In this document: piece after piece, positions 1 to 22,580 of the stretch
How positions within the stretch are numbered: position 1 is the first letter of the stretch
Layout of the letters: each line of letters opens with the position of its first letter
Source of the DNA: a virus
Taxonomy: Duplodnaviria > Caudoviricetes
Virus record (IMG/VR): IMGVR_UViG_3300025021_000204
Coordinates: 1-34,130 of that record
Reading direction: 5' to 3' (one strand)
DNA: 34,130 bases
Notes under the pieces: generated by a model
Told to the model about the DNA's origin: nothing
The model's database searches: none
Seen by the model: only the letters and a program-made list of their open reading frames with translations
Program-made: the position numbers and the translations under genes

Positions 1-972
1 CAGGGCACCATCGTAATAGTAGCCACCGGCCAGAGGCAGGCGCTCATCCGTTACATCAACCCAGAATCCGTCGCCGCCAAGGCCGGTGCTGGCGACCGGA
101 TAAAGCCCCAGAGATTTTGCCAGCGACAATGCGGCTGCACCTACTGGCGTAGTGCCAGGGTTGGTCATACCTTCCAGGCTTGCACCCGATGCACGCACCA
201 GTGTGTAGTTGGTTGTACCGGATGTCGCATACTTGATCGCATTGGCCGAGCCAGGCGCAACCAATGCACCAGTAGAGCCGTCAATAGCCTTCCAAAGTGA
301 CGAAGTCGCGCTCTGATCCTTGGTGTTATCCGCCGCATCATTGTTCTGGATGATTTGGATTTCGCCAGCTTGCAGGCGCATACCGGCGTTCCACTCCCAC
401 AAATTGCCGTTCAGATCGGCGATGCCGCTAGGCTGGCCGTTATGACGCCAAGAGGCCGGGCCTGCACCAGTGTAGGTCTTGCCATTGCCGGTAGCGCTCC
501 CGATAGCGCCGCCATCGGCGCGCGCTGCCGTTTCCCACGGCGAGCCTACATCCCGGCCCCAGTCGTTATTGCCGCGAGGCATAGTGCCATTCTTCCAGCT
601 CCACAGAGCAATGGCAGCCATCTCGGCGGTAGTCATCATGTGCCAGCCTGGGCCATTGGCCGCAGCCAAACCACGGAACGTATCGAAGTTCACGCTGGCG
701 GTCGGTGAAACGCCCGGAATGGACAGCAGGTTGCCATCCTTCTGGATGCCGAGGTGCTGGCCGATGAAGATTTCACTCTTCTCGACGCCATTGACAATAA
801 ACGCCTCATGCACGCCGGTGCCGAGACCGGCATCGATGTCCTGCTTGTTGAACTTCGGGATGACATTCATATAGCACGGGTGTCCTGCCGCCGTGTAAAG
901 CACGGTGACATGGCCGCCAGTTGCGGCCTCAACCGAGGCTCGAAGATCGTCTTTGATGAAGATGGTAGTCAT
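1..972 (-). CDS. Mtd-like (major tropism determinant) receptor-binding protein, C-type lectin/FGE-sulfatase fold; 3' end truncated by window
   Basis: Not in ORF track (no stop inside window). SD AAGGAG then ATG at 972; open for 324 codons: MTTIFIKDDLRASVEAATGGHVTVLY...GWHMMTTAEMAAIALW...GIADLNGNLWEW (391-426)...ERLPLAGGYYYDGAL>; last gene of the tail operon. Confidence 0.85.
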   Translation of the reverse strand, partial: MTTIFIKDDLRASVEAATGGHVTVLYTAAGHPCYMNVIPKFNKQDIDAGLGTGVHEAFIVNGVEKSEIFIGQHLGIQKDGNLLSIPGVSPTASVNFDTFRGLAAANGPGWHMMTTAEMAAIALWSWKNGTMPRGNNDWGRDVGSPWETAARADGGAIGSATGNGKTYTGAGPASWRHNGQPSGIADLNGNLWEWNAGMRLQAGEIQIIQNNDAADNTKDQSATSSLWKAIDGSTGALVAPGSANAIKYATSGTTNYTLVRASGASLEGMTNPGTTPVGAAALSLAKSLGLYPVASTGLGGDGFWVDVTDERLPLAGGYYYDGAL

Positions 973-990
973 GGTGATTGGTCTCCTTAA

Positions 991-1311
991 TTAGTTTGCT
1001 GGCCACAGCGTGAGGACGATGCGGTTTGGGTCGAATGCCACCGGAGTGGTAACGGTAGTCGGGTGTCCGTCTGCATCGAGCGGGCCTGCCTCCTCGATGT
1101 AGCGCCTGGCGGGAATTTCGACCTGCGCCAGGAAAGCGCCATCACCACCCTCGTGAGGGATGCCGTCAAGTTCGCGGATTTCAATGATCTGTGCTTCGTC
1201 AGTCTCACGCGCAGCGCAGTCGATTACTACGCCAGCCACGGTCACTACATCACTCGTAACTGAGAACTCGGAAACGACTTGGCCAGGCTGTTTCATGTTG
1301 ATTTGCGGCAT
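991..1311 (-). CDS. small tail-tip protein (possible adaptor between fibre and Mtd-like protein)
   Basis: 106 aa, SD AAGGAG, co-oriented between tail fibre and Mtd-like gene; function inferred from position. Confidence 0.6.
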   Translation of the reverse strand: MPQINMKQPGQVVSEFSVTSDVVTVAGVVIDCAARETDEAQIIEIRELDGIPHEGGDGAFLAQVEIPARRYIEEAGPLDADGHPTTVTTPVAFDPNRIVLTLWPAN

Positions 1312-1329
1312 TTGTAACTCCTTTCATGG

Positions 1330-2259
1330 TTAAGCGTTGAGGCGGCTCACGCGGTAGCGAGCCACCACATTGTCAGCGGCTGCGGCAAGCATCACCGTGA
1401 AGCCGTTATTGGCACGACTGGACACCACCAGGCTTTTAGCCTCGGCTGGCCCGCCCTGGGCGGATAGCACGTCAAAGGTGATGTGATAGGCGCTGTCCGG
1501 CAGGCCGTTGATCTGCGGCGAAGCCTGCGCCGGGTTGTCCAGCATGATCGGAAAGCCAGCCTCGATGCGCCGCACATCCATGAGCGTCACAGAGGACAGG
1601 TTTGGATCTGTCGCATCCGTCGAATTCGCTGGCACGGTCAGGTTATAGATCAGAATGCCATCGTCCGGCACAGCCTGACCGATGGTGGTCACGGCCAAGC
1701 GCCAGAAGCCATAGGCATCCTGATAAAGGTAGGCATACACCGTTACAGCGCCGGTACCGGTGTTGCTCGGCACCGAGGCATAATTGTTGCCATCAGCCAC
1801 CGCAAACTGCTGGCCTTTCGCAAAACAGATTCCCGCCGCGATGCTAAGGTTGCGCGCCGCCGTCGTAGATTTCGACAATATGCAGCCCGTGACAACGCCA
1901 CGATTCTTGATGGTCACGATGCCTTCCTGCTGTGCGAATTGATGCAGTCCGCGCACGCCTTTGTTGGCCACGTTCGCTTGGTCGATGGCGAATTTAAGCG
2001 TAGCCATCACAGCGTCCTGAGTATCCGGCCCCAATGCTGCCGTGGAGGCTTCCACGGCAGCCATGCGCTCGGTCAGGCTTGGATAGGAACCCTTGGCCGC
2101 ATCGACAACGTCGGCGCGTTCCTTGAGGTATTTGGTACGATTGGCGAGCTGCTTTGCCTGCACGTTGGCAATACCATTCGGCCCAGCCAGCACCGGGTCA
2201 GTCGTTTCGATCTGGTAGACGCCATTTTCCCAGGTCGGGCTTTCAGTCACATTTGCCAT
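1330..2259 (-). CDS. short tail fibre protein
   Basis: N-terminus MANVTESPTWENGVYQIETTDPVLAGPNGIANVQAKQLANRTKYLK is a typical myophage fibre baseplate-attachment segment; coiled coil then beta-rich region; SD GGAGG. Confidence 0.75.
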   Translation of the reverse strand: MANVTESPTWENGVYQIETTDPVLAGPNGIANVQAKQLANRTKYLKERADVVDAAKGSYPSLTERMAAVEASTAALGPDTQDAVMATLKFAIDQANVANKGVRGLHQFAQQEGIVTIKNRGVVTGCILSKSTTAARNLSIAAGICFAKGQQFAVADGNNYASVPSNTGTGAVTVYAYLYQDAYGFWRLAVTTIGQAVPDDGILIYNLTVPANSTDATDPNLSSVTLMDVRRIEAGFPIMLDNPAQASPQINGLPDSAYHITFDVLSAQGGPAEAKSLVVSSRANNGFTVMLAAAADNVVARYRVSRLNA

Positions 2260-2271
2260 AAATCTTCCTCC

Positions 2272-2742
2272 TTAAAAAAGAATCGTCCAGGAGCCGGTGA
2301 GCGACAAGTCGGACTCCTTCTGGATGGGGGCGCGTTGCTTGCGCGAAAACAGAGTTCCGTCCGCGCAGATCAGACCGAACTCCGTGATGGATACGCCGTT
2401 CATCTCGGCGGTGGACAAGCTCCAGTTAAACTGCACCTGGCCGGTGGCCGGATAGCTCACGCTGCCGATGGCCTTGATATAAGGCGATGTCAGCGCCGTA
2501 TCTCCCGGCGCGGCAGCAGTAGTGCCTACACCGAAGCCGATCTGCGTGATGTGCCGATTAGTTCCGTTGCCGCCGATCAGCCGCGCGAGCTGGTTTTTCG
2601 CACCGTTGACGATAAGGTTCGTTTCGTCGATGACCTCGACCAGTTCACCGCCTCGGCGAAGCTCAACGTAGAAATGCCCAGCCATCGGCACATCGTCGCG
2701 TAGGACGATCCCGCCGCCCATGTTGTTTTGTTCGTTCATCAA
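2272..2742 (-). CDS. baseplate/tail-fibre attachment protein
   Basis: NLIVNGAK...ITQIGFGVG...ITEFGL...LFSRK...LTGSWTILF pattern resembles the N-terminal domain of P2 gpH-type fibres as a stand-alone gene; follows gpI-like gene. Confidence 0.65.
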   Translation of the reverse strand: MMNEQNNMGGGIVLRDDVPMAGHFYVELRRGGELVEVIDETNLIVNGAKNQLARLIGGNGTNRHITQIGFGVGTTAAAPGDTALTSPYIKAIGSVSYPATGQVQFNWSLSTAEMNGVSITEFGLICADGTLFSRKQRAPIQKESDLSLTGSWTILF

Positions 2743-3782
2743 GCCTCCAGCATGGTGATGGCATCGCCGCTGTACGCGGTATTGCCGAAGTGAGTAAATT
2801 GCCCGGCGTAGTTTTCCGAGCCGTCAAAGCGGTAGGCGCTATAGGCCATGCGCCCATCGAAACGGCGATGGCGGCGCACCTCGATCTGCATGGGCAGGTC
2901 TTCTGCTACAGGAGCCGATGCGCCGAAATCGGCATAGCCGCTGTAGTCCAGCTCCGCACCGTAAGCAGGGCAGCGAATCTGCTGGTCAGTCATGCCGATC
3001 AACGCGGCCATGCTGTCGCGCTCACGGTCGCCGTCATGGATCGCGCCTGTTGGCGTGGCCGAGAAGCCGTTGTGAATCGCAGCGCCATCGAAGTGCAGCG
3101 CCCCATCCCAGGTATGCAGTGCGCCCTGATCATAGGCCAGCGCGCCATCGTAGAAATGGTGCCCCCAACGATGCTGATCATCGTGTGTAAAGGAGCCTGC
3201 GTGTTGTCCCAGCTCGGTCACACCAACCTGCTCGGTAATACTTGCGCGGTGCTGCACGTCCACCAGGTGACTGCGCGCAGGCTTCCACGCCGTAACGGCC
3301 TCCACTATCAGCGCAGTCTGGGCGGCGGTGATAGGCTGATCATCACCCGCGTCGGCCACCACGCGGAACTGCGCCCAACCGTAGGCGGCATAAGTATCGG
3401 AGCCGCTGAACGTCACGCCACCGTCGTAGCGGTTTGACGGCAGGCGCTCATTGATTTCCAGATCATTAAAACCAGCCGCCTTGAAAGCCTCACGGATGGC
3501 CCAAGGGGTACCCTTATGTCGGTGTAGCGCCACGGCTCTGGCCAGCAGCGCGCGGCGCTGTTCAGGCGTATCTGCCAGATTCCATCCACCTTCACCCATG
3601 ATGCAGAACTGCTCACCCAAGTGCGACAGCGCCGATTCCGCGACGTGTTCGAAGTCGTAGATCAGCGTCGGTAGCAGGTCAATGTCCGACAGGCGCGACT
3701 GGACAGCTTCCAGCGCCCGCATGGATAGATCGGTCGCCAGTGGCGGCGGCAGTAGCGTTGGCTTCACGAAATCGTCAGCCAT
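2739..3782 (-). CDS. baseplate wedge/tail protein I (P2 gpI-like) with C-terminal (Y/F/W)DG repeats
   Basis: LLPPPLA...LSHLGEQF...ALHRHKGTPWAIREA...WKPARSHL motifs; follows baseplate J. Confidence 0.85.
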   Translation of the reverse strand: MADDFVKPTLLPPPLATDLSMRALEAVQSRLSDIDLLPTLIYDFEHVAESALSHLGEQFCIMGEGGWNLADTPEQRRALLARAVALHRHKGTPWAIREAFKAAGFNDLEINERLPSNRYDGGVTFSGSDTYAAYGWAQFRVVADAGDDQPITAAQTALIVEAVTAWKPARSHLVDVQHRASITEQVGVTELGQHAGSFTHDDQHRWGHHFYDGALAYDQGALHTWDGALHFDGAAIHNGFSATPTGAIHDGDRERDSMAALIGMTDQQIRCPAYGAELDYSGYADFGASAPVAEDLPMQIEVRRHRRFDGRMAYSAYRFDGSENYAGQFTHFGNTAYSGDAITMLEA

Positions 3783-4896
3783 TGGCCACTCCTGTCACCG
3801 TGACGGTAATGCCTGTGCAGCGCGGGTACTCCCACTTCGCCAAATCCAGATCGGCGGCAGGTGCGACGGGGATGACGGAATAAACGCCATATACGAACAG
3901 CGCATCGATGAGCTGCGAACGTATGATGGACTGGCCGAACTTCAACCGCGCATCGCGGAAAACCTGCGCGGCCTTCTCCGCTTCCGCCTGCGCCAGCGCA
4001 GCATCCGCAGTACTGGTGAGCACGATCTGCACATTGATGGCGTAGTCCACTGGAACCGGATCTGATACCAGCACCTGATCACACAGTGGGCGCACTTTAT
4101 CGGCGCTACACGTGGCCAGCACCGCCGCCTTGATGGCCTCTCCCGGCAGACCGGCTGCGGTCAACGGATAGAGCGTCACATCGCCAGGAACGTGCGAGAC
4201 AACGGCCACGTCGATGATATTCTGATGCGCACTCATCGCATGGAAGCGGTATGCCTCAACCGAACCAGCCACGCTGAATACCTCCGGGGCAAGCACGATG
4301 CGCTCCTTGAAATGCTCATCGTTCTCTTCTTCTGCACCGCCTTCGGACGTAGTGATATTCTCCACGGCATCCACAGCCAGACCGCTCGGCACATCCACCA
4401 GCGTCTTGATCTGGCCCGGCGCGAAACCGTTGCCGACCTCGCCAGATTGGGTGCAGGTAGCCAGCACGTCAATTTGTGCCGCCCCCGCAGCCACGGTTAC
4501 CGCATCCTTGGTCGCAAACGCCACGTTGCCGCTTTGGACTTGCGTCCCCGCAGGCAGAACGGCGCCAACCGTTGGCGCAGGATTAAACGTGAATCGCAGC
4601 GTTACAGTGGCAGCAACCGCAGGCACACGCGCCACGCCAACATTCTCGCCCAGGTAGTCCAGAATGACACCACGGCTGTAGCGCACCAGATTGAGCTTTG
4701 CGCCGTCCTGGAACGCCTCGCGCACCAGGCTTTCGCGGTAAGCCACTACATCAATCAGCAGGCGCTCGGCCTGCGCCGGGTAAAGCGTCTTACCAGTAAG
4801 CTGCTCGTATAAAGCAATCATCTCGCGCGTAACCTTGGCAGGATCGCGCTCGATGAAATTGGGGTCTGGCATCTGCCGATCAAGAAGCGTGCTCAT
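3775..4896 (-). CDS. baseplate J-like protein
   Basis: PNFIERDP, LDYLGENVGV, GGAEEENDEHFKERI, FSVAGSVEAYRFHA, VRPLCDQV motifs; start reassigned to ATG 4896 (ATGA overlap with gpW stop). Confidence 0.92.
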   Translation of the reverse strand: MSTLLDRQMPDPNFIERDPAKVTREMIALYEQLTGKTLYPAQAERLLIDVVAYRESLVREAFQDGAKLNLVRYSRGVILDYLGENVGVARVPAVAATVTLRFTFNPAPTVGAVLPAGTQVQSGNVAFATKDAVTVAAGAAQIDVLATCTQSGEVGNGFAPGQIKTLVDVPSGLAVDAVENITTSEGGAEEENDEHFKERIVLAPEVFSVAGSVEAYRFHAMSAHQNIIDVAVVSHVPGDVTLYPLTAAGLPGEAIKAAVLATCSADKVRPLCDQVLVSDPVPVDYAINVQIVLTSTADAALAQAEAEKAAQVFRDARLKFGQSIIRSQLIDALFVYGVYSVIPVAPAADLDLAKWEYPRCTGITVTVTGVANG

Positions 4897-5315
4897 AGCT
4901 GTTTCCTCAACGGCACAGGCGTCTTGAAGATTTCCGACCCAACGCCATCGGCGAACACCCACTCGACCTCGACCAGCAGACCGGCCACATCGCCGAGAGA
5001 AACAAACACACGCATCACCTTGATGCGCGGCTCCCACTGGCGTAGCGCATCCACCACCTCGCGCACGATGTGAGGACGGGCGGCGTCGATAGGATAATCA
5101 ACATACAAGTGCAGGTTACTGCCGAAGGTCGGGCGGTGCGGATCGCTGCCCTTGGGAGACTCCAGAATGATGTAGATGCACTGACTGACATCATCCGCGC
5201 CAGTGACAATCTCGCCCATCCGGTCGCTTGCGAGACCGGATGGATGCCCAACCACCTGCCCGGACAGCGCGGGCTGATAGAAAGCGGGGCGAGAGTTTGC
5301 AGGGATGGCGACCAT
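4893..5315 (-). CDS. baseplate protein W / gp25 family
   Basis: QCIYIILESPKGSDPHRPTFGS...ALRQWEPRI motif; between spike and J. Confidence 0.9.
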   Translation of the reverse strand: MVAIPANSRPAFYQPALSGQVVGHPSGLASDRMGEIVTGADDVSQCIYIILESPKGSDPHRPTFGSNLHLYVDYPIDAARPHIVREVVDALRQWEPRIKVMRVFVSLGDVAGLLVEVEWVFADGVGSEIFKTPVPLRKQL

Positions 5316-5363
5316 GTGCTTATGGTCGCCTAAAGCCCTTATTGCGGCGATTAAAGGGCTTTA
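5316..5363 (-). promoter_or_regulatory. putative activator-dependent late promoter (box TAAAGCCCTTTA at 5352-5363, -10-like GACCAT), leaderless into gpW
   Basis: Dyad box ends exactly 36 nt before ATG 5315; same geometry as three other sites; no SD. Confidence 0.7.
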
Positions 5364-5373
5364 GTTTATGGGG

Positions 5374-5970
5374 CTAGTGGGAGTGATGATTGGAGTTTCC
5401 ACCGGCATCAATGATCGTGCCGGTCGCCTGGATATTGCCATCCACTTGCACGTTGCCCTGAATGCTGGCCGCTGAGCCGCCACCCGAGCCGGACATACCG
5501 TCCTTGTAGGTCAGCAAACCATTAACAGTCAGCTTGCCGGTGCAGGTAGTCTGCGGCGTGTCCAGTATGATGCTGGGCGCTTTGATCGTTACCGCACCAT
5601 CGGCGGTGACATTTACAACCCCTTTGCAAAATACAGTCATCGCCCCGCTGGCACGGTCATATTCGATGCTGCCGCCGTCCTTGAACGCCAAGTGGAACTT
5701 ATCCTTGCTCGCCACGGGCGGCATATCCGGATCAGAGTAGATCGCGCCGAGGATACAGCCGTCTTCCATGAACTCATCGAGCAGGCAGGAAACCTGCTCG
5801 CCCACGTCCAGCGTCCACACAATTTTGTCTTCAAGCGTCTTGGGGTGAATGACCGGCAGCCAGGCCGTGACCAGGCCATCTATATCCTCGAAGCTCACCC
5901 GCGCAAATCCGGGCTTGGATTCAGCCACGATGCCCGTCTTGTAACTCACGCCGCCCGTGGTTCGCGTCAT
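5374..5970 (-). CDS. baseplate assembly protein V (central spike)
   Basis: OB-fold N-terminus (ARVSFED...TAWLPV...GEQV), FKDGGSIEYD, beta-helix repeats, C-terminal NHHSH metal-binding tip. Confidence 0.92.
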   Translation of the reverse strand: MTRTTGGVSYKTGIVAESKPGFARVSFEDIDGLVTAWLPVIHPKTLEDKIVWTLDVGEQVSCLLDEFMEDGCILGAIYSDPDMPPVASKDKFHLAFKDGGSIEYDRASGAMTVFCKGVVNVTADGAVTIKAPSIILDTPQTTCTGKLTVNGLLTYKDGMSGSGGGSAASIQGNVQVDGNIQATGTIIDAGGNSNHHSH

Positions 5971-7004
5971 TTCTTCTCAGCTCCCTGCTCCGGATCGCGC
6001 ACCCGTTTCAGATCTACTTCCGTGCCGTAGCCCGAGCTGCGCGACACGCGATGCCGAGCTTGCGTCACGGTGTATTTGCCGTCCATCGCACCGAAGCCGA
6101 CCAGCAGCACATTCACGCCAGACATCAACCGCACCTCGCCGGGCAGAGTGAGGCCGCCACCCGTCTGGTCTTCGTTGGCGAGATCGAGCGCGGCATCGGC
6201 CTTGAGCTGCGCCTGCTGCTCGTTTTCGGCGCGCACGTTGCGCTTCAGCTCATCGGCGCTGTGCGCGTTGTGCTTGGCCTCTTTGTCCTTAACCGTCGCC
6301 TTCTTCGTCTTCTTGGTCTTGGGATCGTGATAGGACACGGTTGCGGCCACCACCACGCCATGCACCTTGTCGCGGAAGCGAAAGCTGGTCACGTCCTGGC
6401 GTGTAATGGTGAGCGTGGATTCCGCCTTCTTGAGTTCAGCGCGCTTGAAGAACGTGAGCTTGTCGCCACGCACCGAGAAGCTGTAGCCGTAGCTCTCGGC
6501 CACGCGCTTGAGAAAGGTCAGGTCGGTTTCATAGACCTGCGTCACACGGGATATCTTCACTGCCTCGATAGTGCCGGAGAGCTTCAGCTTGTTGCGCTGC
6601 GCCACGGTTCTGGCAATGTCGGCCAGAGTGGTATTCTCGTAAGCACGCCCGTTGTAAGTGCGCACGGAGCGTTTCACCCCTGCCGCCAGCCCCTTGATGC
6701 GGATAGTGTCCGGCGGGCCTTCCAGCTCAACCTCATCCACCTCGAAATCGCCGCACGGCAGCAGCGGCCCATTGGCATAACCGAGCTGCACGCTCACCAT
6801 GTCGCCATGCTGTGGGTACCAGGCGTTCTGCCAGCGCCGGTCAACATCCTCAAGCAGAATCTCGACACTGTCGCTTTCACCTTCCATGAAGTCGGTATAG
6901 CTGATCTCGATGAGCGCCGGGGAAATCACCGTGGTGATATCGCGGCGCTCATAGATCACGATGACCTTGGGTTCGGGTATCGTAGAAAGGCTCAACGCTT
7001 CCAC
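5967..7004 (-). CDS. late control D / baseplate hub (P2 gpD-like)
   Basis: ISYTDFMEGESDSVEI, GDFEVDEVELEGPPDTI, QVYETDLTFLKRVAE motifs. Confidence 0.9.
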   Translation of the reverse strand: MEALSLSTIPEPKVIVIYERRDITTVISPALIEISYTDFMEGESDSVEILLEDVDRRWQNAWYPQHGDMVSVQLGYANGPLLPCGDFEVDEVELEGPPDTIRIKGLAAGVKRSVRTYNGRAYENTTLADIARTVAQRNKLKLSGTIEAVKISRVTQVYETDLTFLKRVAESYGYSFSVRGDKLTFFKRAELKKAESTLTITRQDVTSFRFRDKVHGVVVAATVSYHDPKTKKTKKATVKDKEAKHNAHSADELKRNVRAENEQQAQLKADAALDLANEDQTGGGLTLPGEVRLMSGVNVLLVGFGAMDGKYTVTQARHRVSRSSGYGTEVDLKRVRDPEQGAEKK

Positions 7005-7225
7005 GGCGGCAACTCCTCTGCCTGCAACGCTTGAGTGGATTCACTGACGGGCAGCACCGGAATCAGCACCTTTACACCGGAAGGCAGCGCCGAGCCAATG
7101 TCCAGCGCCGGGTTTGCTTGAATGATGCGACCATAGTCCAGCGGATTGCCGTAATAACGCCACGCCAGGCTATCCCAACGCTCACCGGCCTGCGTGATGT
7201 GCTCGATGCAATTGATAGCTTTCAC
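6992..7225 (-). CDS. tail protein X (LysM-like)
   Basis: HITQAGERWDSLAWRYYG...IIQANP...LPPWKR. Confidence 0.9.
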   Translation of the reverse strand: MKAINCIEHITQAGERWDSLAWRYYGNPLDYGRIIQANPALDIGSALPSGVKVLIPVLPVSESTQALQAEELPPWKR

Positions 7226-7830
7226 CGTGCGCTCCGCAGCGGTGATGCGCCAGCGGGGCGCGGGGCGGGAGTCTTATAGACCGATTGTGACGGCATCGTA
7301 GCTGAACCGCTCGCCGCATTCTGCTCGATGGCTACGGCGGACTGGCGCGGTGTTTCGTCCGGCATCGACGCAGCCGGTGGAGATTCGCGCATCTTGAGTT
7401 GCGCCTCAATCCACAGCAATGTCCCATCGCCCCGAGTCATGCGCGTAGTCACGTTCACCGAGACCGGCACAAACCATCCCTGGTGCGCACCGCTGGCAAA
7501 CACCAGCGGCAGCGGCGTGTGAGCCGCGACGGCAGCGCGTAACTTCAATAGTTCCACGGTCGGCACACAGAAGCCCGCGTGGAACATCAGATTCCACGTC
7601 ACTTCGCCAAGATTATCGCCCACCCACTGCAAGCGCGGCTTACCCTCGATCAGCGCATGCTCCGCAAAGTTCGCCGAGAAACTCTCTTCGACCCCTTCAA
7701 TTTGAGACAGCACATCAAAGCCAATCGTGCCCAGCATGGCATGTGAAATTCCGCCGAGATTGCTCTTCAGCTCGCGGATGACGCGGTCGGAGGCAAAATT
7801 TCCGCCAACTGAGAGCAGTTGATCTAACAT
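7222..7830 (-). CDS. tail tube initiator (P2 gpU-like)
   Basis: FAEHALIEGKPRLQWVGDNL motif; directly after tape measure. Confidence 0.85.
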   Translation of the reverse strand: MLDQLLSVGGNFASDRVIRELKSNLGGISHAMLGTIGFDVLSQIEGVEESFSANFAEHALIEGKPRLQWVGDNLGEVTWNLMFHAGFCVPTVELLKLRAAVAAHTPLPLVFASGAHQGWFVPVSVNVTTRMTRGDGTLLWIEAQLKMRESPPAASMPDETPRQSAVAIEQNAASGSATMPSQSVYKTPAPRPAGASPLRSAR

Positions 7831-10652
7831 CAGAATGCCCTCCGTTGCTGCTCGGCCTGCAAGCGGCGCAGCATCTGCTCCAGCTCGCGCACGGACATCT
7901 GCATGGCATGCTGCACCTGGCCTTTCACGTCACCGCTGCCATTGCCGCCAATAGTGATAGATGGAGAAAACTGGATCGTCATGCCCGATGCACTTGGTGC
8001 TGCACCAGACGCGCCGCGCGCCGAAGGTGAAGCGATCTGGATGTTCGGCAGCATCTGTGTGGCTTCTTTCGCCCCCGCCATTGCATGGCCGCTGGCAGCC
8101 ATCGCACCAGCCATTGCCGCACCCGCCAGCTTTCCTGCCGCACTTTGCACACCAGACATTGCACTCTTGATTCCCTGCGTTGCTCCAGCGCCAATGTTTA
8201 GGCCATAGTCCATGAACACCGTGCTCGGAGAATGGATGCCAAGCATGGACTTGAACTTATCCTTGATGCCGCTGGCGAGTTGGCCGACCGACTTGCTCAA
8301 CTTCGCCCACCCTTCGGTGAGACCACCGACCAGACCGTTGATGATGTCAGCGCCGATCTGGATCATGCGCGCGGGCAATTTGAGGAACTCGGCTAGTAGC
8401 TTTGCGCCCCAAGTCAAAACTCCCGCGATCCCCTTGCCGAACTTTTCCCCCATGTTGCGGCCAGCGTTACCCACATCCTCAACTGGCGTGAAAAGGTTTC
8501 TCATCCAGCCCCAAAGCATTTTCACGCCCCCGGCCACGAGTTTAATGGGCAACAGGATGGGGGAAAACAGCACCTTGAGCAGCGGCATCAACGGCTGAAT
8601 GGCCGTCATCAGATTGCCGAATGCAGTCCGCAGAGCGGCCAGCGCCGGGCGCAGCGCATCCATTACTGGCTGAAAGCCAGTCTTGAGGCCCGCCCACATA
8701 CCGCTGAAGAATCCCTTGATCGGCCCCCAATACTTCCAGACCAAAAAAGCAAGACCCGCAACCGCCGCCGCCACCCAGCCGATGGGCGTAGTGAGCAACG
8801 CCAGACCGAATGCACGCGTGCCAGTCGCCAGCGACATCAGCGCCGTCCTGCCGACTTGACCAAGCAGCGCCATTGGCCCGCCCGCCAACTGACTGGCCAG
8901 TGCTACGCTCGCCAAGCGCATGCGCAGGCCGGATAGTGCAGCTTGATACAGATTTGTGACGCTCACATTCGCCGCCACACCCAGGCGCGTGGTCATCAGC
9001 CAACCGGCCACATTCTGGAATGTACCGAGCGATGACAGCAGTCCGCCCTGCATGAACTTGAACGCGAAGCCGAGCACCGTCATAGCAGATGCCCCCATCA
9101 GCACACCTGCGGCCAGCCTAGAGAACATGGGGAACGTCTGCGTAACCCAAGTCATGAAGGTGGTGATGCCGCGAATCAACGGAGTGAAGAGATCAATAGC
9201 GGGCATCATGGCGTTGCCCAGCGCAATGCCGAAATCAGTGATGGCGATCTTCAAGCCCTTGAGTTTTTCAGCCATGCCCTCGGTACGCCGTGCATAGTCC
9301 GTATCGAGCGTTCCCCGCCCATCAGCGTTCTTGCCGGTTTTGACATCGCCCATCATCTTGTTGAGATCGCCCTTGTTCTGGATTTCGGCCAGCAGGTAGG
9401 AAACCGCCTGCATGTCCTGAAACAAGTCGCCTATGCCAGCACGGTCGCCGAGCTTCTGAATCATCGCGGAGCGGCGTTCCAGCTCGGCCTGCCGTTGCAC
9501 CGGGTCGGAAATCTTCGCCACCTCCTCGGCCACCTTTTTCAGCTCGGCAGCAGCCTCCGGCGCTTTGGCCTTGACGTGCTGCATGACCAGATCGACGCCA
9601 GCCGCAATCGGGTCGAGTCCCTTCCGCGCCGCCGCTTGGAGCTGCGGAATCAGGTCGATACCCTGCTTCTTGAAATCCTTGATGGTGTCCTGCGAGGTCA
9701 GCTTTGTCAGAAAGTTCTTGAAGTTGTTGGCGGCCTCATCGTTGCTGCCTGCCGTGCGCGTGGCCACCTGCATCCTCGAAGCCATGCTCACTACAGCCTC
9801 ATTGCCGGACACGCCGAGTTCCTTCATAAATCCGCCCAGCGCCGGGAACCACTTGGCCATATCGCGCAGCTCGAAGCTGCCCTGCTTGCCAGCCTTCGCC
9901 GCTTGGTTGAAGGCCAGCTCCATATCCTTGACGCCAAGCAACTCGAAGCTGCGTGCCATTTTCGCTGCATCGCCGCTGTCGGTGCGCGTCGCGGTTGCCG
10001 TCTTTGCCATCAATGGCATCATGGTGCTTGCTGCTTGCTGGCTCATGCCGGTTTCCACCAACTTCTTCATGGCCTCGGCCACGTCCTGCTGCGACTGGTT
10101 ATAGCGCAGCGACAATCCACGGATGGATTTCGCCAGCTCTTCTTCCTCTCGCTTTGTCAACTCGCCAGTGATGGCGATGTCCTTGATGACATCCTCATAG
10201 CGTGCGGCCACGGCCACCGGCTTGTAGAAGCTGTACCCCGCAGCGACCGCATCCATCACCTTGCCGCGAGCATCGGCTCGCATCGCGGCACCGGCACTGA
10301 TGTTGTTTTGCCCGGCCACGCGCAGGTTAAGACCGGACTCGGCTGCACGAAGCTGGCGCAGTTCCGTATGCAGCTTGCCGATATTCAGCCCGGCTTCACG
10401 TGCCTTGGCTGACATATTGAGCAGCTCGCGCGAGACCTTGGCGATCTCCTCTTTTGAGTACCTGCCGCTGCTCGATACTTCATTGAATCTGGCCTTGAGC
10501 GCCAGCAGGTCTGAACCGAGCTTTTGTTTGAGCTGGACGCCATTCAGACTGGTCTTGAGCTGGTCAACGTTCTGCCGTATCATCGACAAACCGCTGACAG
10601 CAGCGGCTCCGCCGAGCAACGAAATCAGAACATCTAACTTGGTTTGTGCCAT
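7830..10652 (-). CDS. tail tape measure protein (TP901-type core)
   Basis: 940 aa, Ala/Gly-rich, AGKQGSFELRDMAKWFP core, hydrophobic segments, LGIHSPSTVF; SD AGGAG. Confidence 0.95.
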   Translation of the reverse strand: MAQTKLDVLISLLGGAAAVSGLSMIRQNVDQLKTSLNGVQLKQKLGSDLLALKARFNEVSSSGRYSKEEIAKVSRELLNMSAKAREAGLNIGKLHTELRQLRAAESGLNLRVAGQNNISAGAAMRADARGKVMDAVAAGYSFYKPVAVAARYEDVIKDIAITGELTKREEEELAKSIRGLSLRYNQSQQDVAEAMKKLVETGMSQQAASTMMPLMAKTATATRTDSGDAAKMARSFELLGVKDMELAFNQAAKAGKQGSFELRDMAKWFPALGGFMKELGVSGNEAVVSMASRMQVATRTAGSNDEAANNFKNFLTKLTSQDTIKDFKKQGIDLIPQLQAAARKGLDPIAAGVDLVMQHVKAKAPEAAAELKKVAEEVAKISDPVQRQAELERRSAMIQKLGDRAGIGDLFQDMQAVSYLLAEIQNKGDLNKMMGDVKTGKNADGRGTLDTDYARRTEGMAEKLKGLKIAITDFGIALGNAMMPAIDLFTPLIRGITTFMTWVTQTFPMFSRLAAGVLMGASAMTVLGFAFKFMQGGLLSSLGTFQNVAGWLMTTRLGVAANVSVTNLYQAALSGLRMRLASVALASQLAGGPMALLGQVGRTALMSLATGTRAFGLALLTTPIGWVAAAVAGLAFLVWKYWGPIKGFFSGMWAGLKTGFQPVMDALRPALAALRTAFGNLMTAIQPLMPLLKVLFSPILLPIKLVAGGVKMLWGWMRNLFTPVEDVGNAGRNMGEKFGKGIAGVLTWGAKLLAEFLKLPARMIQIGADIINGLVGGLTEGWAKLSKSVGQLASGIKDKFKSMLGIHSPSTVFMDYGLNIGAGATQGIKSAMSGVQSAAGKLAGAAMAGAMAASGHAMAGAKEATQMLPNIQIASPSARGASGAAPSASGMTIQFSPSITIGGNGSGDVKGQVQHAMQMSVRELEQMLRRLQAEQQRRAF

Positions 10653-10899
10653 GAAGAACAGCTCCTACACTGACGCATTTATCACTTGCTACTGGACTGC
10701 GGTGCTGGCCATCAGCTTCGCCGTGTCGGTGGCGGGTGGCACTTGGGCGTTCTTGGGGCCGATTGGCGTAATTCTCGGCACCCTCGTAGTCGCCATCCCC
10801 GTCACCCTCTGCATCACCCTGTGCTTCCCGGTCACGTTCCCCGTTCTAGCTCTCGCAGCTTGGTGGCTTGGGCGGAAATCTGCTCACTCGCCAGCTTGA
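10651..10899 (+). CDS. small inner-membrane protein, antisense to tail operon (moron-like)
   Basis: 82 aa from ATG 10651 (MKNSSYTDAFITCYWTAVLAISFAVSVAGGTWAFLGPIGVILGTLVVAIPV...), almost entirely hydrophobic; fills the chaperone-TMP gap. Confidence 0.6.
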   Translation: MKNSSYTDAFITCYWTAVLAISFAVSVAGGTWAFLGPIGVILGTLVVAIPVTLCITLCFPVTFPVLALAAWWLGRKSAHSPA

Positions 10900-11020
10900 C
10901 CCACTGAACGAAGTCGCTGGTTTCCAGCGCCTCGATCTCCGATGGCTGAAACCGAAACCACTTGGCCAACAGCGCCGCACCCTGCCAGTAGTCAGTCTCC
11001 GAGACCCGAAACCTTGCGAA
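10832..11020 (-). CDS. tail assembly chaperone C-terminal extension (gpE'/GT-like), reached by frameshift
   Basis: +1 frame relative to chaperone reads FARFRVSETDYWQGAALLAKWFRFQPSEIEALETSDFVQWVKLA...; W/F-x-x-x-PSEI-x-x-L pattern typical of gpE'; no ATG of its own. Confidence 0.7.
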   Translation of the reverse strand, partial: FARFRVSETDYWQGAALLAKWFRFQPSEIEALETSDFVQWVKLASEQISAQATKLRELERGT

Positions 11021-11249
11021 AGGTGTCCATCACCTGGCGCATATCGGCCAAGGTGAGTTCCTCCGTATCTTCGATGGTCAGTTTCTCTGCCGAGAGCGAA
11101 CAGATCATGTGCCACACCTGATCTTCCTCGTTGCTGGTGATTTGTTGCGCAGCCTTCAAGTCTCTCCGCGTCGGCTCGCGGGTGAGCGTGATAGCCTTCA
11201 CCTCGCCGCTGGGGGTCTTGATCGGCTTCTTCAATGTGATCTTCGTCAT
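10992..11249 (-). CDS. tail assembly chaperone (gpE / Mu gp41-like)
   Basis: ITLKKPI...ITLTREPTRRDL...EELTLADM; between tube and TMP; SD GAGGA. Confidence 0.88.
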   Translation of the reverse strand: MTKITLKKPIKTPSGEVKAITLTREPTRRDLKAAQQITSNEEDQVWHMICSLSAEKLTIEDTEELTLADMRQVMDTFRKVSGLGD

Positions 11250-11355
11250 GTCCTGTTCCTCTATGTGTGCGGGCAGTCAGCGCCTCAAATCCGGCAGCGC
11301 CGCTGATGATCTTCCTCTCGATTACGCCGTCTCATCGAGCAGTCTCGGGGGGGAT

Positions 11356-11877
11356 TTAGCCACCGATGTTGGTGCGATACAGGTCGAGCTTATCTACGCC
11401 ATTGACCTTGTAGATATTCGCCATCGTATCCAGCTCCAGCACATCCTTACCATCGACCACCTGCTTGATGTAGGAAGCAAAGAACTTGCTCTGGAACTCT
11501 GCCTTATCGTTCTGCTTGAAGTCGCCCGCAGGCACCTCGTAGAACGAGCAGGTGAGGAACACCACATAAGGCACCTGCGCCTGACGGCCCTGGCTGTTGT
11601 AGGTTTCCAGACTACCGCGCGCTTGCAGTTGCACAGCGGTGTAGGGGTCGAGCAGCTTTGCCCATACCTCCGGGTAAAAAGAGTTCCACTTGATCTCGCC
11701 TTCCAGCGCTTCAAAGCCGCTGGGCAGCTTGATCGCGCCGACCATGCCCACGGCCTTGTGTTCGGCCATCTTGAACTTAACCGTTGGGAGTTTGAACTCC
11801 TCGGCCCGTCCAAGCAGGCTGTTGCCGTCGATGTAGATGTTCGCGTTGTTCAGTGTGTTCAGTTGAATGCCAGCCAC
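11356..11877 (-). CDS. major tail tube protein (P2 FII-like)
   Basis: NANIYIDGNSLLGRAEEFKLP...ELDTMANIYKVNGVDKL...NIGG. Confidence 0.93.
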   Translation of the reverse strand: MAGIQLNTLNNANIYIDGNSLLGRAEEFKLPTVKFKMAEHKAVGMVGAIKLPSGFEALEGEIKWNSFYPEVWAKLLDPYTAVQLQARGSLETYNSQGRQAQVPYVVFLTCSFYEVPAGDFKQNDKAEFQSKFFASYIKQVVDGKDVLELDTMANIYKVNGVDKLDLYRTNIGG

Positions 11878-11907
11878 GGTAGGCTCCTTTCAGTAATAGT
11901 GAGTTGG

Positions 11908-13362
11908 TTACTTCGCGCCCAGCTCGGAGAGGTAGTTGATGTTGATGCTGGCCTTGTAGGTCACGCGCTCTGCGGGTGTCGGCGGCATGAAATCGTAGGT
12001 GATCGTCAAGTGGCCTGCTGCCAGCTCCGTCACTTCGTTTTCAGCCTGATCGAACCACGCCTTGCCGTCGATGATCGCGCCGTTTGCCTTGAGCGTCCGC
12101 ATGAAACCGTTGCAGCTCTCGACAATGGCATCGATCAGCGCGTTATCCAGCGGGCGATCATTGAACTGGAGCGTGAAATACTCCAGGCTCTCCGCGATGA
12201 TGTCCGCCGTGCGGCGCACGCACAGGAAGTTCTTGGGGTGCGTGCTGGACGGGAACGCCGCGCTGCGGTTGCCCCACACGCGGATGCCAGTGCCGAATGA
12301 ATTGAACAGCGTGATGATGCCCGCCCCGTTGAGCAGATTTGCCTCGCAGTTCGGATCGTTGATCATCGCGTCGATGGGGCGTTCCATGCCGGTGATGCCG
12401 AGCAGCTCGGTATTCGACAGCGACCACCAATAGCCGTTCTCCTGATCCTTGCGCGACTGCGCGCCCGCCGCATACTGCGACAGCGGCATCAGCACTTCGG
12501 CATCGGCCACCGTGTCATAGGCTTTGACGTGCGGGTAGCACAAGCCAACGCGCTCGGAGCTGGTGTTGAAGTTGAGCGTGCCAGCCGGGCCGCGCCCGGT
12601 GATAGCCTGCTGCGGCGTGATGCCGATGGGCGCGTCGATAAAGCAGATCGCGCGGATGCTGTTTGCGGCAGCGATCAGCTCGGTGGACACGGCAGCCAGC
12701 GTGGCGAACACCGGAGAAATCAAAATCTTCGGGTAGAAGCCAAACAACTGATAGCTGTCGCGGAACGCCTTGAGTCCGGTGCGGTTGCCGCCCGCGTCGA
12801 TGGTGCCGATGATATCGGACGATTGCACCAAGGCCGGGTTGAGATAGGTATAGGTCGCCTTCACCGTGGTAGGAGTGGCAATGGTTCCTGCCGGGATAGC
12901 GCCCGTGCTGATGCGCTTGCCGGTGCCGGTGGCCGCATCGAAGCTGTAGTCGGTGTCCAGGATGTAAGTGGTCGCCAAATCCGCGCTGACCAGCGTGATC
13001 TCGCCGACCACGGCAGGATGCGGCAGCGTGAAGCTGCCATCGACCGGGTCAACGGTCGCGGTCTCCGGGACAGCGACCGTGGTCTTGTGCGCCGCGTTCG
13101 CGGGGTCGAGCACGTTAATCACCACGCACACGGTACCCTTCTGGTCAAAGATCGCGTCCAGCGCATCCAGAATGGTGCTGCCGGGGATGTTCTCACCGAA
13201 CTGCGCGAAATCCTTTTCGCTGGTCACGATGATCGGCTTGTTCACCTCGCCCGCCGCAGCGGTGCCGATGAGGCCGATCACCGCCGTCTTCACCATTTGA
13301 ACCGGACGCGGCCCCTTGTCGATCTCGATAGTCTCGACGCCATGCAGATAACTTGCAGTCAT
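11908..13362 (-). CDS. tail sheath protein (P2 FI-like)
   Basis: YLHGVETIEI, TAVIGLIGTA, YWWSLSN, GIRVWGNRS, YDFMPPTPAERVT motifs. Confidence 0.95.
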   Translation of the reverse strand: MTASYLHGVETIEIDKGPRPVQMVKTAVIGLIGTAAAGEVNKPIIVTSEKDFAQFGENIPGSTILDALDAIFDQKGTVCVVINVLDPANAAHKTTVAVPETATVDPVDGSFTLPHPAVVGEITLVSADLATTYILDTDYSFDAATGTGKRISTGAIPAGTIATPTTVKATYTYLNPALVQSSDIIGTIDAGGNRTGLKAFRDSYQLFGFYPKILISPVFATLAAVSTELIAAANSIRAICFIDAPIGITPQQAITGRGPAGTLNFNTSSERVGLCYPHVKAYDTVADAEVLMPLSQYAAGAQSRKDQENGYWWSLSNTELLGITGMERPIDAMINDPNCEANLLNGAGIITLFNSFGTGIRVWGNRSAAFPSSTHPKNFLCVRRTADIIAESLEYFTLQFNDRPLDNALIDAIVESCNGFMRTLKANGAIIDGKAWFDQAENEVTELAAGHLTITYDFMPPTPAERVTYKASININYLSELGAK

Positions 13363-20750: not shown

Positions 20751-22580
20751 ATGGCCAATCCACTCGCTCCCGATCTGCTGCAAGAGCTGTTTGCTCTGCG
20801 CGACCGCATCAACGCGGCTCCGCATGGTTGCGCGACCGAGCTGGTGCATCGCTTCGCCAGCTTGATCGGAAAGAATCCATCGACGGTCTATGCCTGGCTT
20901 CGAGATCACACCGGCTATCGAACTGGCCGTAAGAAGCGCGCCGATGCAGGCACCACTGCGCTGCCGCAGGAAACGCTGAACTTCATCGCGGCGGCGAAGC
21001 GCGAGGGGATACGCGGCAATGGCAAGGCAACACTGCCCACGGCGGTGGCCATGAACATCGCACATACCAACGGTATAGATGTGCCGGTATCCGAGGGTCG
21101 CATTAACTCTCTGCTGCGCGCGGCTCGCATGGACATCAAATCGCAACTCGCCGCGCGCAACCACATCACGCTGCGCAGCCTGCATCCGAACCACCTGCAT
21201 CAGATTGATCCATCGCTCTGCCTCATCTACTACACCCCGAAGGGCCAGGCGATCATGCGCGATGAGGAGTTCTACAAGAACAAGCCAGCCAGCATGGACA
21301 AGGTGCGGCTCAAGGTGTGGCGTTACGTTCGCTACGACCACGCCAGCAGCAACCTCGACGTTCGATATTACGAGGCAGCGGGCGAGAACCAGCATAGCCT
21401 GTTTGAGTTCTTGCTCTACACCTGGAGCCAGCAGCCGATGCGTGTGTCGCATGGCGTACCGCGCATGTTGCTGTGGGACAAGGGCAGCGCCAACACCAGC
21501 TTTGCCATCAAAAATTTGCTCGACGCGCTCGGCGTTGACCATGAAACACACGCCGTTGGCCACTCGTGGGGGAAGGGCGGCGTCGAGCAGGGTAACAACC
21601 TAGTCGAGACGCATTTCGAGAGTCGCCTGCGATTCGAGCCAGTAGAGACCGTCGAGCAACTCAACGCGGCAGCGGCGGCGTGGGTGCGTGACTTCAACGC
21701 CAACGCCATCGCGCATGTGGACTGTCGCCTAACGCGCGCCAGCGGCCAACCGATGGTGCGCGATGATCTATGGCAACTGATCATGCGGCACCCCGGCGCG
21801 CTGGTGCAGATGCCACCGCGCGAGATATGCCAGTGGTTCATGGCTGGTCAGGAACTCACCCGTGTGGTGCGCGACCTTTCCATCAGCTTTGCCCACCCGG
21901 AGCTTGGCCGTTCCGCGCGTTACGACTTGAAACCCTGGGCCGAGTTCCTCGGCAACGGACAGAAGGTGCGCGTGACGCCAATGCTCATGCAGCAGGGCGC
22001 GCTGCGCATCGAGATCGAGCGCATGGGCGATGAGTCGCTACTGGTGCAGGTGCAGCCGGAAAGCGCGTTCGACGACTACGGTCGCCCTCTCTCAGCGCCT
22101 GTCGCCGGAGAGGAATACGCTCGCGCACCAGCGACTGCAAGCGAGCGCGCAGCCAACACGTTGTCCGCAGCCGCGTGGGGCGACGGCACCACGGTGGACG
22201 GTGCCGAGAAGAAGCGGGCAGAGCAGGCCCGTCCTTTCGGCCACCTCAACGAAGGCAAGGGCATCGTCGCACACAGCCACTTGGGCAAAACCGACCTGCC
22301 GCATCGGCTGGTGCCAAATGCCGAGGAAGTACAGACGCCGCAGGTACAGAGCCTGCAATCCAAGGCTACAGCCGTTCAGGTCATGCTCACCGTGCCGGAA
22401 GCGGTGCGCAGCATCAAGGAGCGCCTAGGCTCCGCCTCCCCAGCCGACCTCTACATGCAAATCTCCACCGCCTTCCCTGCGGGCAATGTGCCGCAGGTAT
22501 GGGCCGACCAGTGGGGCAACACGGTGGCGACCGGCACGCACGGTGGCGGCAACGTGACTGAACTGAGGAGGGTCAAGTGA
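20751..22580 (+). CDS. Mu-like DDE transposase A
   Basis: HPNHLHQIDPS (D), LLWDKGSAN (D), GKGGVE (E); N-terminal HTH; followed by AAA ATPase. Confidence 0.92.
   Translation: MANPLAPDLLQELFALRDRINAAPHGCATELVHRFASLIGKNPSTVYAWLRDHTGYRTGRKKRADAGTTALPQETLNFIAAAKREGIRGNGKATLPTAVAMNIAHTNGIDVPVSEGRINSLLRAARMDIKSQLAARNHITLRSLHPNHLHQIDPSLCLIYYTPKGQAIMRDEEFYKNKPASMDKVRLKVWRYVRYDHASSNLDVRYYEAAGENQHSLFEFLLYTWSQQPMRVSHGVPRMLLWDKGSANTSFAIKNLLDALGVDHETHAVGHSWGKGGVEQGNNLVETHFESRLRFEPVETVEQLNAAAAAWVRDFNANAIAHVDCRLTRASGQPMVRDDLWQLIMRHPGALVQMPPREICQWFMAGQELTRVVRDLSISFAHPELGRSARYDLKPWAEFLGNGQKVRVTPMLMQQGALRIEIERMGDESLLVQVQPESAFDDYGRPLSAPVAGEEYARAPATASERAANTLSAAAWGDGTTVDGAEKKRAEQARPFGHLNEGKGIVAHSHLGKTDLPHRLVPNAEEVQTPQVQSLQSKATAVQVMLTVPEAVRSIKERLGSASPADLYMQISTAFPAGNVPQVWADQWGNTVATGTHGGGNVTELRRVK

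What the first reader, a model, noticed from the sequence alone, without database searches (positions are those of the whole stretch)
1..972. Unlisted Mtd-like tropism protein cut at the start of a probable DGR variable region
Seen: a 324-codon minus-strand frame with a strong SD, absent from the ORF track, placed last in the tail operon. It has GWHMMTTAE and GIADLNGNLWEW motifs and ends at the edge in ERLPLAGGYYYDGAL (1-45). Known: these motifs mark the CLec/FGE-type fold of DGR targets such as Bordetella phage BPP-1 Mtd, whose variable region starts near a GGxW-like motif close to the C-terminus. Seen: the codons right after GGT GGC are TAC TAT TAC GAT, all obtainable from AAC/AAT by A-to-N change. 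Inference: a template repeat, Avd and reverse transcriptase lie just left of the window, so this Mu-like phage would switch host range by mutagenic retrohoming rather than a Gin-type invertible fibre. I found no template repeat or RT inside the window.
Basis: partly seen in the sequence, partly recalled or inferred. Interest (0 to 1): 0.82.

Follow-up and report, generated by a model that had tools for sequence, protein, structure and literature searches.

The report
Hypermutating tail-tip gene in Mu-like phage
This groundwater Mu-like phage carries the cut-off target gene of a diversity-generating retroelement: near-identical copies show the template, helper and reverse-transcriptase genes just past the contig end, with variation almost only at template adenines, likely retuning which bacteria the phage binds; it is a clean new example of a known system.

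Summary
Confirmed. The frame (972-1, minus) is a homologue of the Thermus DGR variable protein TaqVP (E 3e-81; model TM 0.88), not of multidomain Mtd (TM about 0.3). The contig ends 42 nt into the variable repeat. Two contigs 99.9% identical to the window (L001, L010) continue into VR end, GRNA hairpin, avd, TR, a DGR-type RT (IGxxxSQ, YVDD), com, dam and the phage end 4.0 kb away. TR and VR differ at 13 of 13 sites at template adenines. L001 and L010 differ at 19 of 6,551 nt, 17 of them at template adenines. In 8 groundwater runs, 20 of 21 variable places are template adenines. No serine invertase was found, so the DGR occupies Mu's gin slot. Host-range switching is inferred from gene position and homologues (VHML ORF35, ACA1/ACA2 antireceptor), not shown. 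One correction: the second codon's template is TAT, not AAY. DGRs in Mu-like phages are in print (Hankyphage, Mushu, YPCBV-1). BalMu-1 is annotated with one and cultured Pseudomonas phage Bise has the same cassette. This scan found the same kind before on other DNA (e1-1961047). Verdict: new member of a known kind.

The parts
1..972 (-). DGR target gene, TaqVP-like single-domain CLec (FGE-subtype) protein; 324 of 351 codons present
   Evidence: 5VF4 E 3e-81; full-length 351 aa in L001; AlphaFold pLDDT 96, TM 0.88 to TaqVP
1..42 (-). First 42 nt of the 115-nt variable repeat. The rest of VR, IMH, GRNA hairpin, avd, TR, RT, com, dam and the phage end lie beyond position 1 (L001 3692-6551; L010 5973-9980)
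   Evidence: Differs from TR (L001 4394-4508) at 3 of 7 template adenines and nowhere else
983..988 (-). Shine-Dalgarno-like AAGGAG
   Evidence: Sequence
991..1311 (-). 106-aa beta-rich protein of no named family (phrog_8734), found between the fibre gene and the target gene in many relatives; candidate adaptor or chaperone (inferred)
   Evidence: no PDB match at E<=0.001
1330..2259 (-). 309-aa tail-fibre-like protein (N-terminal baseplate-attachment region; C-terminal domain travels with the 106-aa gene and the target)
   Evidence: PHROG tail fibre families E 8e-19 on the N-terminus; ESM Atlas 'putative tail fiber' 0.98
2272..13362 (-). P2-like contractile tail module (gpI, J, gp25, spike, gpD, X, U, tape measure, tube, sheath)
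   Evidence: Pfam and PHROGs
20751..23809 (+). Transposase and transposition ATPase; with Gam, GemA, Mor, Mu portal, gpF and gpT they mark a Mu-like transposable phage
   Evidence: phrog_310 E 3e-68, phrog_296 E 2e-63; Pfam Mu families

Best explanation
The frame is the target gene of an intact diversity-generating retroelement in a Mu-like contractile-tailed phage, whose variable repeat differs between near-identical copies almost only at template adenines, and it likely encodes a tail-tip receptor-binding lectin whose rewriting would change which cells the phage binds. Mechanism: by established BPP-1 biology, avd-TR-RT RNA is copied by the RT-Avd complex with misincorporation opposite adenines. 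The cDNA replaces the VR from the IMH end, guided by the downstream GRNA hairpin. Here 23 adenines in 12 residue-changing codons allow about 9e12 proteins. Shown: the parts (in 99.9%-identical contigs), the adenine-specific variation, the CLec fold, and no serine invertase. Inferred: the retrohoming chemistry, display on the virion through the 309-aa fibre and 106-aa protein, host-range change, and a Gallionellaceae-like host.
For: L001 (5 differences in 3,691 nt) and L010 (7 in 5,972 nt) carry VR-hairpin-avd-TR-RT-com-dam. TR/VR mismatches: 13 of 13 at A in L001, L010 and L004, 11 of 11 in L011, 9 of 9 in Bise; the last A is a fixed IMH/IMH* boundary difference. L001 vs L010: 17 of 19 differences are at template A and the TRs are identical. 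In 8 runs, 20 of 21 listed variable places are template A, and two runs each hold two alleles. The first four variable codons give 8 distinct alleles among 9 sequences. RT: RVT_1 54 bits, IGNLLSQ and YVDD, 36% to BPP-1 Brt. Avd: Pfam bAvd 56 bits, cut-off 40. A GRNA-loop hairpin follows VR in 13 of 13 DGR loci folded. Fold: TaqVP TM 0.88, then TvpA and Mtd at E about 7e-4 to 1e-3. Homologue ACA1 gp42 (41% over 60%): near-identical ACA1 and ACA2 infect different Pseudoalteromonas species and differ mainly in the VR (PMC10612066 passages).
Against: No contig with the window's own VR allele was seen joined to the cassette. Only assembled contigs were available, so there are no read-level allele frequencies or RNA, and the runs may come from one campaign. 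Avd scores 75.4 bits against the NCBIfam DGR-Avd cut-off of 80. The window lineage's hairpin has 6 perfect pairs plus 3 after a bulge, z -2.3, against a 7-10 bp consensus. TaqVP is a monomer without Mtd's trimerising domains, and the parts read name no ligand (PMC6328139). 23 of 44 informative genome loci have the target with no RT nearby, so the protein does not need a DGR. The ACA authors found unexpectedly high spectrum counts of the prophage-type antireceptor and suspected another role.
Confidence: 0.8

Rival explanations
1. The DGR is real and active, but the target is not the primary receptor-binding protein. It is a secondary adhesin, or a protein made in the lysogen that binds or masks a surface ligand.
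For: TaqVP is monomeric with no ligand named in the parts read (PMC6328139). The ACA1 antireceptor was more abundant than major capsid by normalised spectrum counts and of the prophage allele (PMC10612066). The Mushu DGR target is a Hoc-like capsid protein, not a fibre (PMC5883640). The phage has a separate fibre-like gene.
Against: The gene is last in the tail operon, followed by a terminator-like hairpin. The fibre, 106-aa gene and target stay together in 11 of 12 informative loci found through the fibre. ACA1 and ACA2 differ in host and mainly in VR.
Confidence: 0.15
2. The VR alleles are standing variation shuffled by recombination among strains, and the retroelement is now inactive.
For: Activity is inferred from contigs, not a time series. 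All four combinations of two residues at the first and third variable codons occur, a pattern recombination can give.
Against: Outside the VR the copies are nearly invariant (2 differences in about 6,400 nt). RT is intact in 4 of 4 copies checked. The two codons are 6 nt apart, so recurrent mutation is the simpler source.
Confidence: 0.03
3. The window's own phage is a static variant that has lost the cassette, like relatives in which the target is followed directly by com-dam.
For: Such variants exist (L031), and the window ends before the cassette.
Against: Both near-identical contigs that extend past the VR have the cassette (L001, L010). All 8 runs laid hold both the target and the cassette, one in a single 19-kb contig. 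The window's allele differs from L001 and L010 inside the VR only at template adenines.
Confidence: 0.02

Closest known systems
Thermus aquaticus prophage 2 DGR, target TaqVP (PDB 5VF4; PMC6328139, PMC4605624)
   Same: Homologous single-domain FGE-type CLec target (43% structural-alignment identity, TM 0.88); C-terminal VR; order target-avd-TR-rt; 36-kb prophage with many genes annotated as Mu-like.
   Different: 12 residue-changing codons here against 9 in TaqVP; mesophilic groundwater phage; population-level variation is seen here.
Pseudomonas phage Bise (OR683401, host P. aeruginosa 199)
   Same: Gene order and layout shared; 74% DNA identity over 97% of window 1-8000; target 66%, RT 85%; TR/VR 9 of 9 at A; com-dam after RT; no invertase.
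   Different: Its capsid is not among the top 30 matches to the window's capsid. The record labels the genes only hypothetical, four-helix bundle and RT; no paper found (0 hits; uninformative).
Bordetella phage BPP-1 DGR (mtd-avd-TR-brt)
   Same: Cassette order, adenine-specific TR/VR, IMH/IMH* divergence, GRNA hairpin, RT 36% identical, CLec VR.
   Different: [quoted passage not shown] BPP-1 is a podovirus (recalled).
VHML / VP58.5 / ACA1-ACA2 / FP_Lagaffe DGR targets
   Same: Same target family (41-46% over 60% of the length); VP58.5 TR/VR 12 of 12 at A.
   Different: Not Mu-type transposable phages (ACA P2-like; Lagaffe uses an IS30 transposase); VP58.5 lacks the fibre-C and 106-aa genes by profile search.
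DGR-bearing transposable phages: Hankyphage, Mushu, YPCBV-1, BalMu-1
   Same: Mu-like replication plus DGR is in print (PMC6199706, PMC5883640, PMC9769972). BalMu-1 has the same trio, Avd (annotated), TR and RT.
   Different: Hankyphage and Mushu diversify unrelated targets (a large multidomain protein; a Hoc-like protein). YPCBV-1's target did not match this family at E<=0.001.
Phage Mu G segment (S/U, gin, com, mom)
   Same: Same genomic slot, between the tail fibre and com plus a DNA-modification gene near the end (Mu order recalled; com and dam shown).
   Different: No serine invertase; about 1e13 possible alleles instead of two orientations; dam instead of mom.

Membership tests
Diversity-generating retroelement | TR and VR near-identical, differing at template adenines | tested here: met
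   13 of 13 in L001 and L010; 3 of 3 in the window's 42 nt
Diversity-generating retroelement | VR in the 3' coding end of a target gene | tested here: met
   VR is L001 3650-3764; stop at 3773-3775
Diversity-generating retroelement | RT with (I/V/L)GxxxSQ and YxDD (PMC3521204 passages) | tested here: met
   IGNLLSQ and YVDD in 4 of 4 copies; RVT_1; read from near-identical relatives, outside the window
Diversity-generating retroelement | Avd accessory protein | tested here: met
   Pfam bAvd 56.4 bits over cut-off 40; NCBIfam 75.4, just under 80; pI 8.8
Diversity-generating retroelement | IMH versus IMH* divergence after a G/C tract | tested here: met
   VR and TR diverge after the shared G/C run in 6 of 6 pairs
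Diversity-generating retroelement | Hairpin with GC-rich 7-10 bp stem and GRNA loop downstream of VR (PMC3240598 passages) | tested here: met
   GRNA loop in 13 of 13 loci; in this lineage the stem is 6 bp plus 3 after a bulge, z -2.3
Diversity-generating retroelement | Ongoing adenine-specific variation of VR with invariant TR | tested here: met
   17 of 19 differences; 20 of 21 places in 8 runs; contigs only, no raw reads
Diversity-generating retroelement | RT-dependent retrohoming through an RNA intermediate | not testable with these tools
   Needs an RT knockout or homing assay
TaqVP-type FGE/CLec variable protein | Single-domain CLec fold of FGE subtype with C-terminal VR | tested here: met
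   E 3e-81 single sequence, 4e-130 profile over residues 4-357; TM 0.88
Mtd family (BPP-1) | Beta-prism and beta-sandwich trimerisation domains before the CLec domain | tested here: not met
   Whole chain matches monomeric TaqVP; Mtd TM about 0.3; no sequence hit. It may work like Mtd without being one
Phage receptor-binding protein | Present on the virion and determines adsorption | not testable with these tools
   Only gene position and homologues
Mu-like transposable phage | Transposase/ATPase, Mu head genes, fixed end joined to variable host DNA | tested here: met
   the same end motif is followed by three different flanks in L004, L010 and L011
Gin/Cin invertible tail-fibre system | Serine invertase next to an invertible fibre segment | tested here: not met
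   PF00239: 0 of 1 own, 0 of 3 relatives; control rings in 12 of 14 genomes; genes after RT are com, dam, DUF6900 and one unnamed

The most novel reading that the evidence does not exclude
The TaqVP-type target is the tip of an undescribed three-part module: a 309-aa fibre, a 106-aa protein with no solved-structure match, and a monomeric lectin. The module moves between phages of several phyla and repeatedly gains and loses its DGR, and in B3/BcepMu-type transposable phages the DGR fills the gin slot. If so, it explains how monomeric DGR targets are mounted on virions, and phage Bise gives a cultured model.
Probability: 0.35. Interest if true: 0.5.

Novelty: new member of a known kind. Interest (0 to 1): 0.3.

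Why it matters
It confirms a prediction made from 45 nt at a contig edge and documents an actively varying DGR in a recurrent groundwater phage, probably of Gallionellaceae-like bacteria. It does not change what is known about DGRs. The useful leftovers are a conserved fibre/106-aa/target trio that may show how TaqVP-type monomers attach to tails, and an unannotated copy of the cassette in cultured Pseudomonas phage Bise. It also shows that contigs of such phages break inside the VR, so DGRs are missed at contig ends.

Tried and rejected
Complex prediction of the target with the 106-aa protein: no answer, score 0.01 in two runs, controls not folded; not used as evidence either way. Pfam and NCBIfam do not name the target. 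PriA hits are chance. The 106-aa model has no PDB match at E<=0.001 and one uncharacterised phage match in BFVD; the wider VIA structure search was not run. The fibre alignment found no credible PDB relative. Sheath and baseplate-J scans for sister phages with gin in the slot mostly gave loci that stop short of it or are distant, so a gin/DGR swap within this phage group is untested. L144 has 13 N in its VR, but its own TR is not held and only 8-9 align with adenines of relatives' templates; not counted. One-base indel pairs are read as alignment artefacts of clustered substitutions. The promoter-like site before avd (9 of 12; shuffles mean 0.4) is not above chance. The target tree is the quick tree only. 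An enzymatic FGE/EgtB reading, as RefSeq labels homologues, was set aside: those matches are short or weak.

Full report
Observation. The record is the window alone, 34,130 nt, classed as a provirus 92% complete. It encodes a P2-like contractile tail, Mu-type head genes, transposase, ATPase, Gam, GemA and Mor (51 of the 214 listed ORFs scanned). It has no RT and no second copy of the repeat.

What lies left of the window. Searches with the protein gave 9 viral and 7 metagenome loci. L001 matches window 1-3691 with 5 differences and L010 matches window 1-5972 with 7. Both continue in the same order (L001 coordinates): target stop (351 aa in all), hairpin with a GATA loop, terminator-like hairpin, avd (3942-4355), TR (4394-4508), RT (4666-5673), com, dam. 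L010 then shows two small genes and the phage end 4,008 nt beyond the window edge. L004, L010 and L011 share the end motif but have different flanks, as expected for transposition.

Adenine specificity. TR and VR differ at 13 of 115 positions in L001, all template adenines (24 A in 115; p about 5e-11). The last of these is the same base in all six pairs compared and marks the IMH/IMH* boundary. The window's 42 nt differ from TR at 3 of 7 adenines. L001 and L010 differ at 19 of 6,551 nt, 17 at template adenines, and their TRs are identical. Twelve codons can change residue, giving about 9e12 proteins.

Variation in the field. All 24 listed runs holding the stretch are groundwater or aquifer metagenomes and may be one campaign. 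I laid 8 of the 24, all as assembled contigs. Of 21 listed variable places, 20 are template adenines in the VR; the other lies 6 nt upstream. One run has the stretch in a single 18,974-nt contig. In the other 7 no listed piece spans it, and pieces break at or inside the VR (and in some at the TR). Two runs hold two alleles each. The first four variable codons give 8 distinct alleles among 9 sequences (window, L001, L010 and six contigs), with all four combinations of two residues at codons 6 nt apart, which suggests recurrent mutation. None matches the window's allele, so the link from the window to the cassette rests on 99.9% identity. Contigs L002, L003, L142, L143 and L149 also end at or in the VR, which explains the window's edge.

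The machinery. The RT has IGNLLSQ and YVDD in 4 of 4 copies, the motifs described for DGR RTs (PMC3521204, passages). It is 36% identical to BPP-1 Brt and 85% to the Bise RT. Avd passes Pfam's cut-off and just misses NCBIfam's. A hairpin with a GRNA loop follows the VR in 13 of 13 DGR loci folded, matching the consensus in PMC3240598 (passages); in this lineage the perfect stem is 6 bp.

The target. The only credible PDB sequence relative is TaqVP. The AlphaFold model of the L001 allele (58-row alignment; pLDDT 96, pTM 0.94) matches TaqVP at TM 0.88, then TvpA and Mtd at TM about 0.3, then FGE proteins. TaqVP is a monomeric FGE-type CLec protein, while Mtd needs extra domains to trimerise (PMC6328139, parts 1-3 of 4 read). 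'TaqVP-like' is therefore the right label. The family includes VHML ORF35, VP58.5 gp18, the FP_Lagaffe target and the ACA1/ACA2 antireceptor (56 records). ACA1 and ACA2 are near-identical, infect different species and differ mainly in the VR, but the authors also noted odd abundance of the protein (PMC10612066, passages).

The slot and the module. No serine invertase was found in the window or in three whole relatives, nor among the genes after RT in L010. The DGR sits between the fibre and com, where Mu has gin (Mu order recalled). Among 52 genome loci, 8 were dropped for under 2.5 kb downstream; 21 of the remaining 44 have an adjacent RT and 23 do not within the DNA held. A quick tree needs 13 changes of the DGR label, at least 8 forced by well-supported branches, so gain or loss is recurrent. 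Of 50 loci with enough upstream DNA, 26 have the 106-aa gene and 25 of those also have the fibre C-domain. Searching from the fibre gave 15 loci: 3 uninformative, 11 with the trio (several near-copies) and 1 exception. Of 8 phage records inspected first, 5 have TR and RT and 3 do not, one of these with only 1.7 kb held.

Host. The 212-nt flank of L010 encodes part of a thiopurine methyltransferase. The best hits are unnamed (93-96%) and the best named are Sideroxydans (83%) and Sideroxyarcus (78%). A Gallionellaceae-like host is likely but rests on one flank.

Mechanism. Shown: parts, adenine-specific variation, fold, absence of gin. From established BPP-1 biology: RT-Avd copying of TR RNA with errors at adenines, and replacement of VR. 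Inferred: virion display and host-range change (about 0.8), against a secondary or lysogen role (about 0.15).

Prior art. DGRs in transposable phages are reported for Hankyphage (PMC6199706), Mushu with read-level VR variation (PMC5883640) and YPCBV-1 (PMC9769972), and in D. piger prophages with Mu-like proteins (PMC12724379); all were read as passages. TaqVP's own prophage has many Mu-like annotations (PMC4605624, passages). DGRs are enriched in groundwater (bioRxiv 2020.04.01.020958, passages). PMC5758913 was read as passages for target classes. Phage Bise is the nearest cultured relative; no paper on it was found (0 hits; one search swamped by unrelated terms). I ran no search aimed at the trio, so I do not claim it is absent from print. 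No supplements were read, and survey tables may already list this element. The scan has two similar earlier findings on other genomes.

Verdict. Real, active by population evidence, and a new member of a known kind. Interest 0.3.

Noticed in passing
window 991-2259 and many loci: Fibre C-domain, 106-aa gene and target form a conserved trio across Proteobacteria, Desulfobacterota and Bacillota loci, with or without a DGR.
   Followed up: partly
L030 5088-9546: Verminephrobacter locus with the trio duplicated in tandem, a third partial target, and no RT in the DNA held: copies instead of hypermutation.
   Followed up: no
L031 5051-8571: Trio followed almost directly by com-dam with no DGR, on a tail module unlike the window's.
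   Followed up: partly
L026 7783-11132: Two avd-TR-RT cassettes in tandem behind one target in an Azonexus genome; the second TR is divergent.
   Followed up: no
window 48 (L001 3644): A G/T polymorphism (Asp/Tyr) 6 nt upstream of the VR, seen in L010 and one contig of run X16; not a template adenine.
   Followed up: no
window 10-21 (L001 3671-3682): All four combinations of Ser/Tyr at the first and third variable codons occur among 9 sequences, hinting at recurrent mutation plus selection.
   Followed up: partly
L005, L033 versus L025: Targets 66-68% identical to the window's carry RTs of either 84% or 37-39% identity, so RT cassettes are exchanged independently of the target.
   Followed up: no
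L017 / OR683401 33647-36637: Cultured Pseudomonas phage Bise has a complete DGR (9 of 9 at A) that its record does not label as such.
   Followed up: yes
L146 6941-7246: A sister phage (76% fibre identity) has a small membrane-like gene after the fibre instead of the 106-aa gene; the contig ends there.
   Followed up: partly
L065, L066, L122, L134, L135: Other layouts: a target 5 kb from its cassette (L065), two targets for one TR (L066), and RT loci whose repeats were not resolved.
   Followed up: no
window 15202-16101: The capsid's best phage matches are about 45% (Rhodobacter RC1), not Bise, although flanking modules are 74-79% identical to Bise in DNA: a mosaic head module.
   Followed up: no
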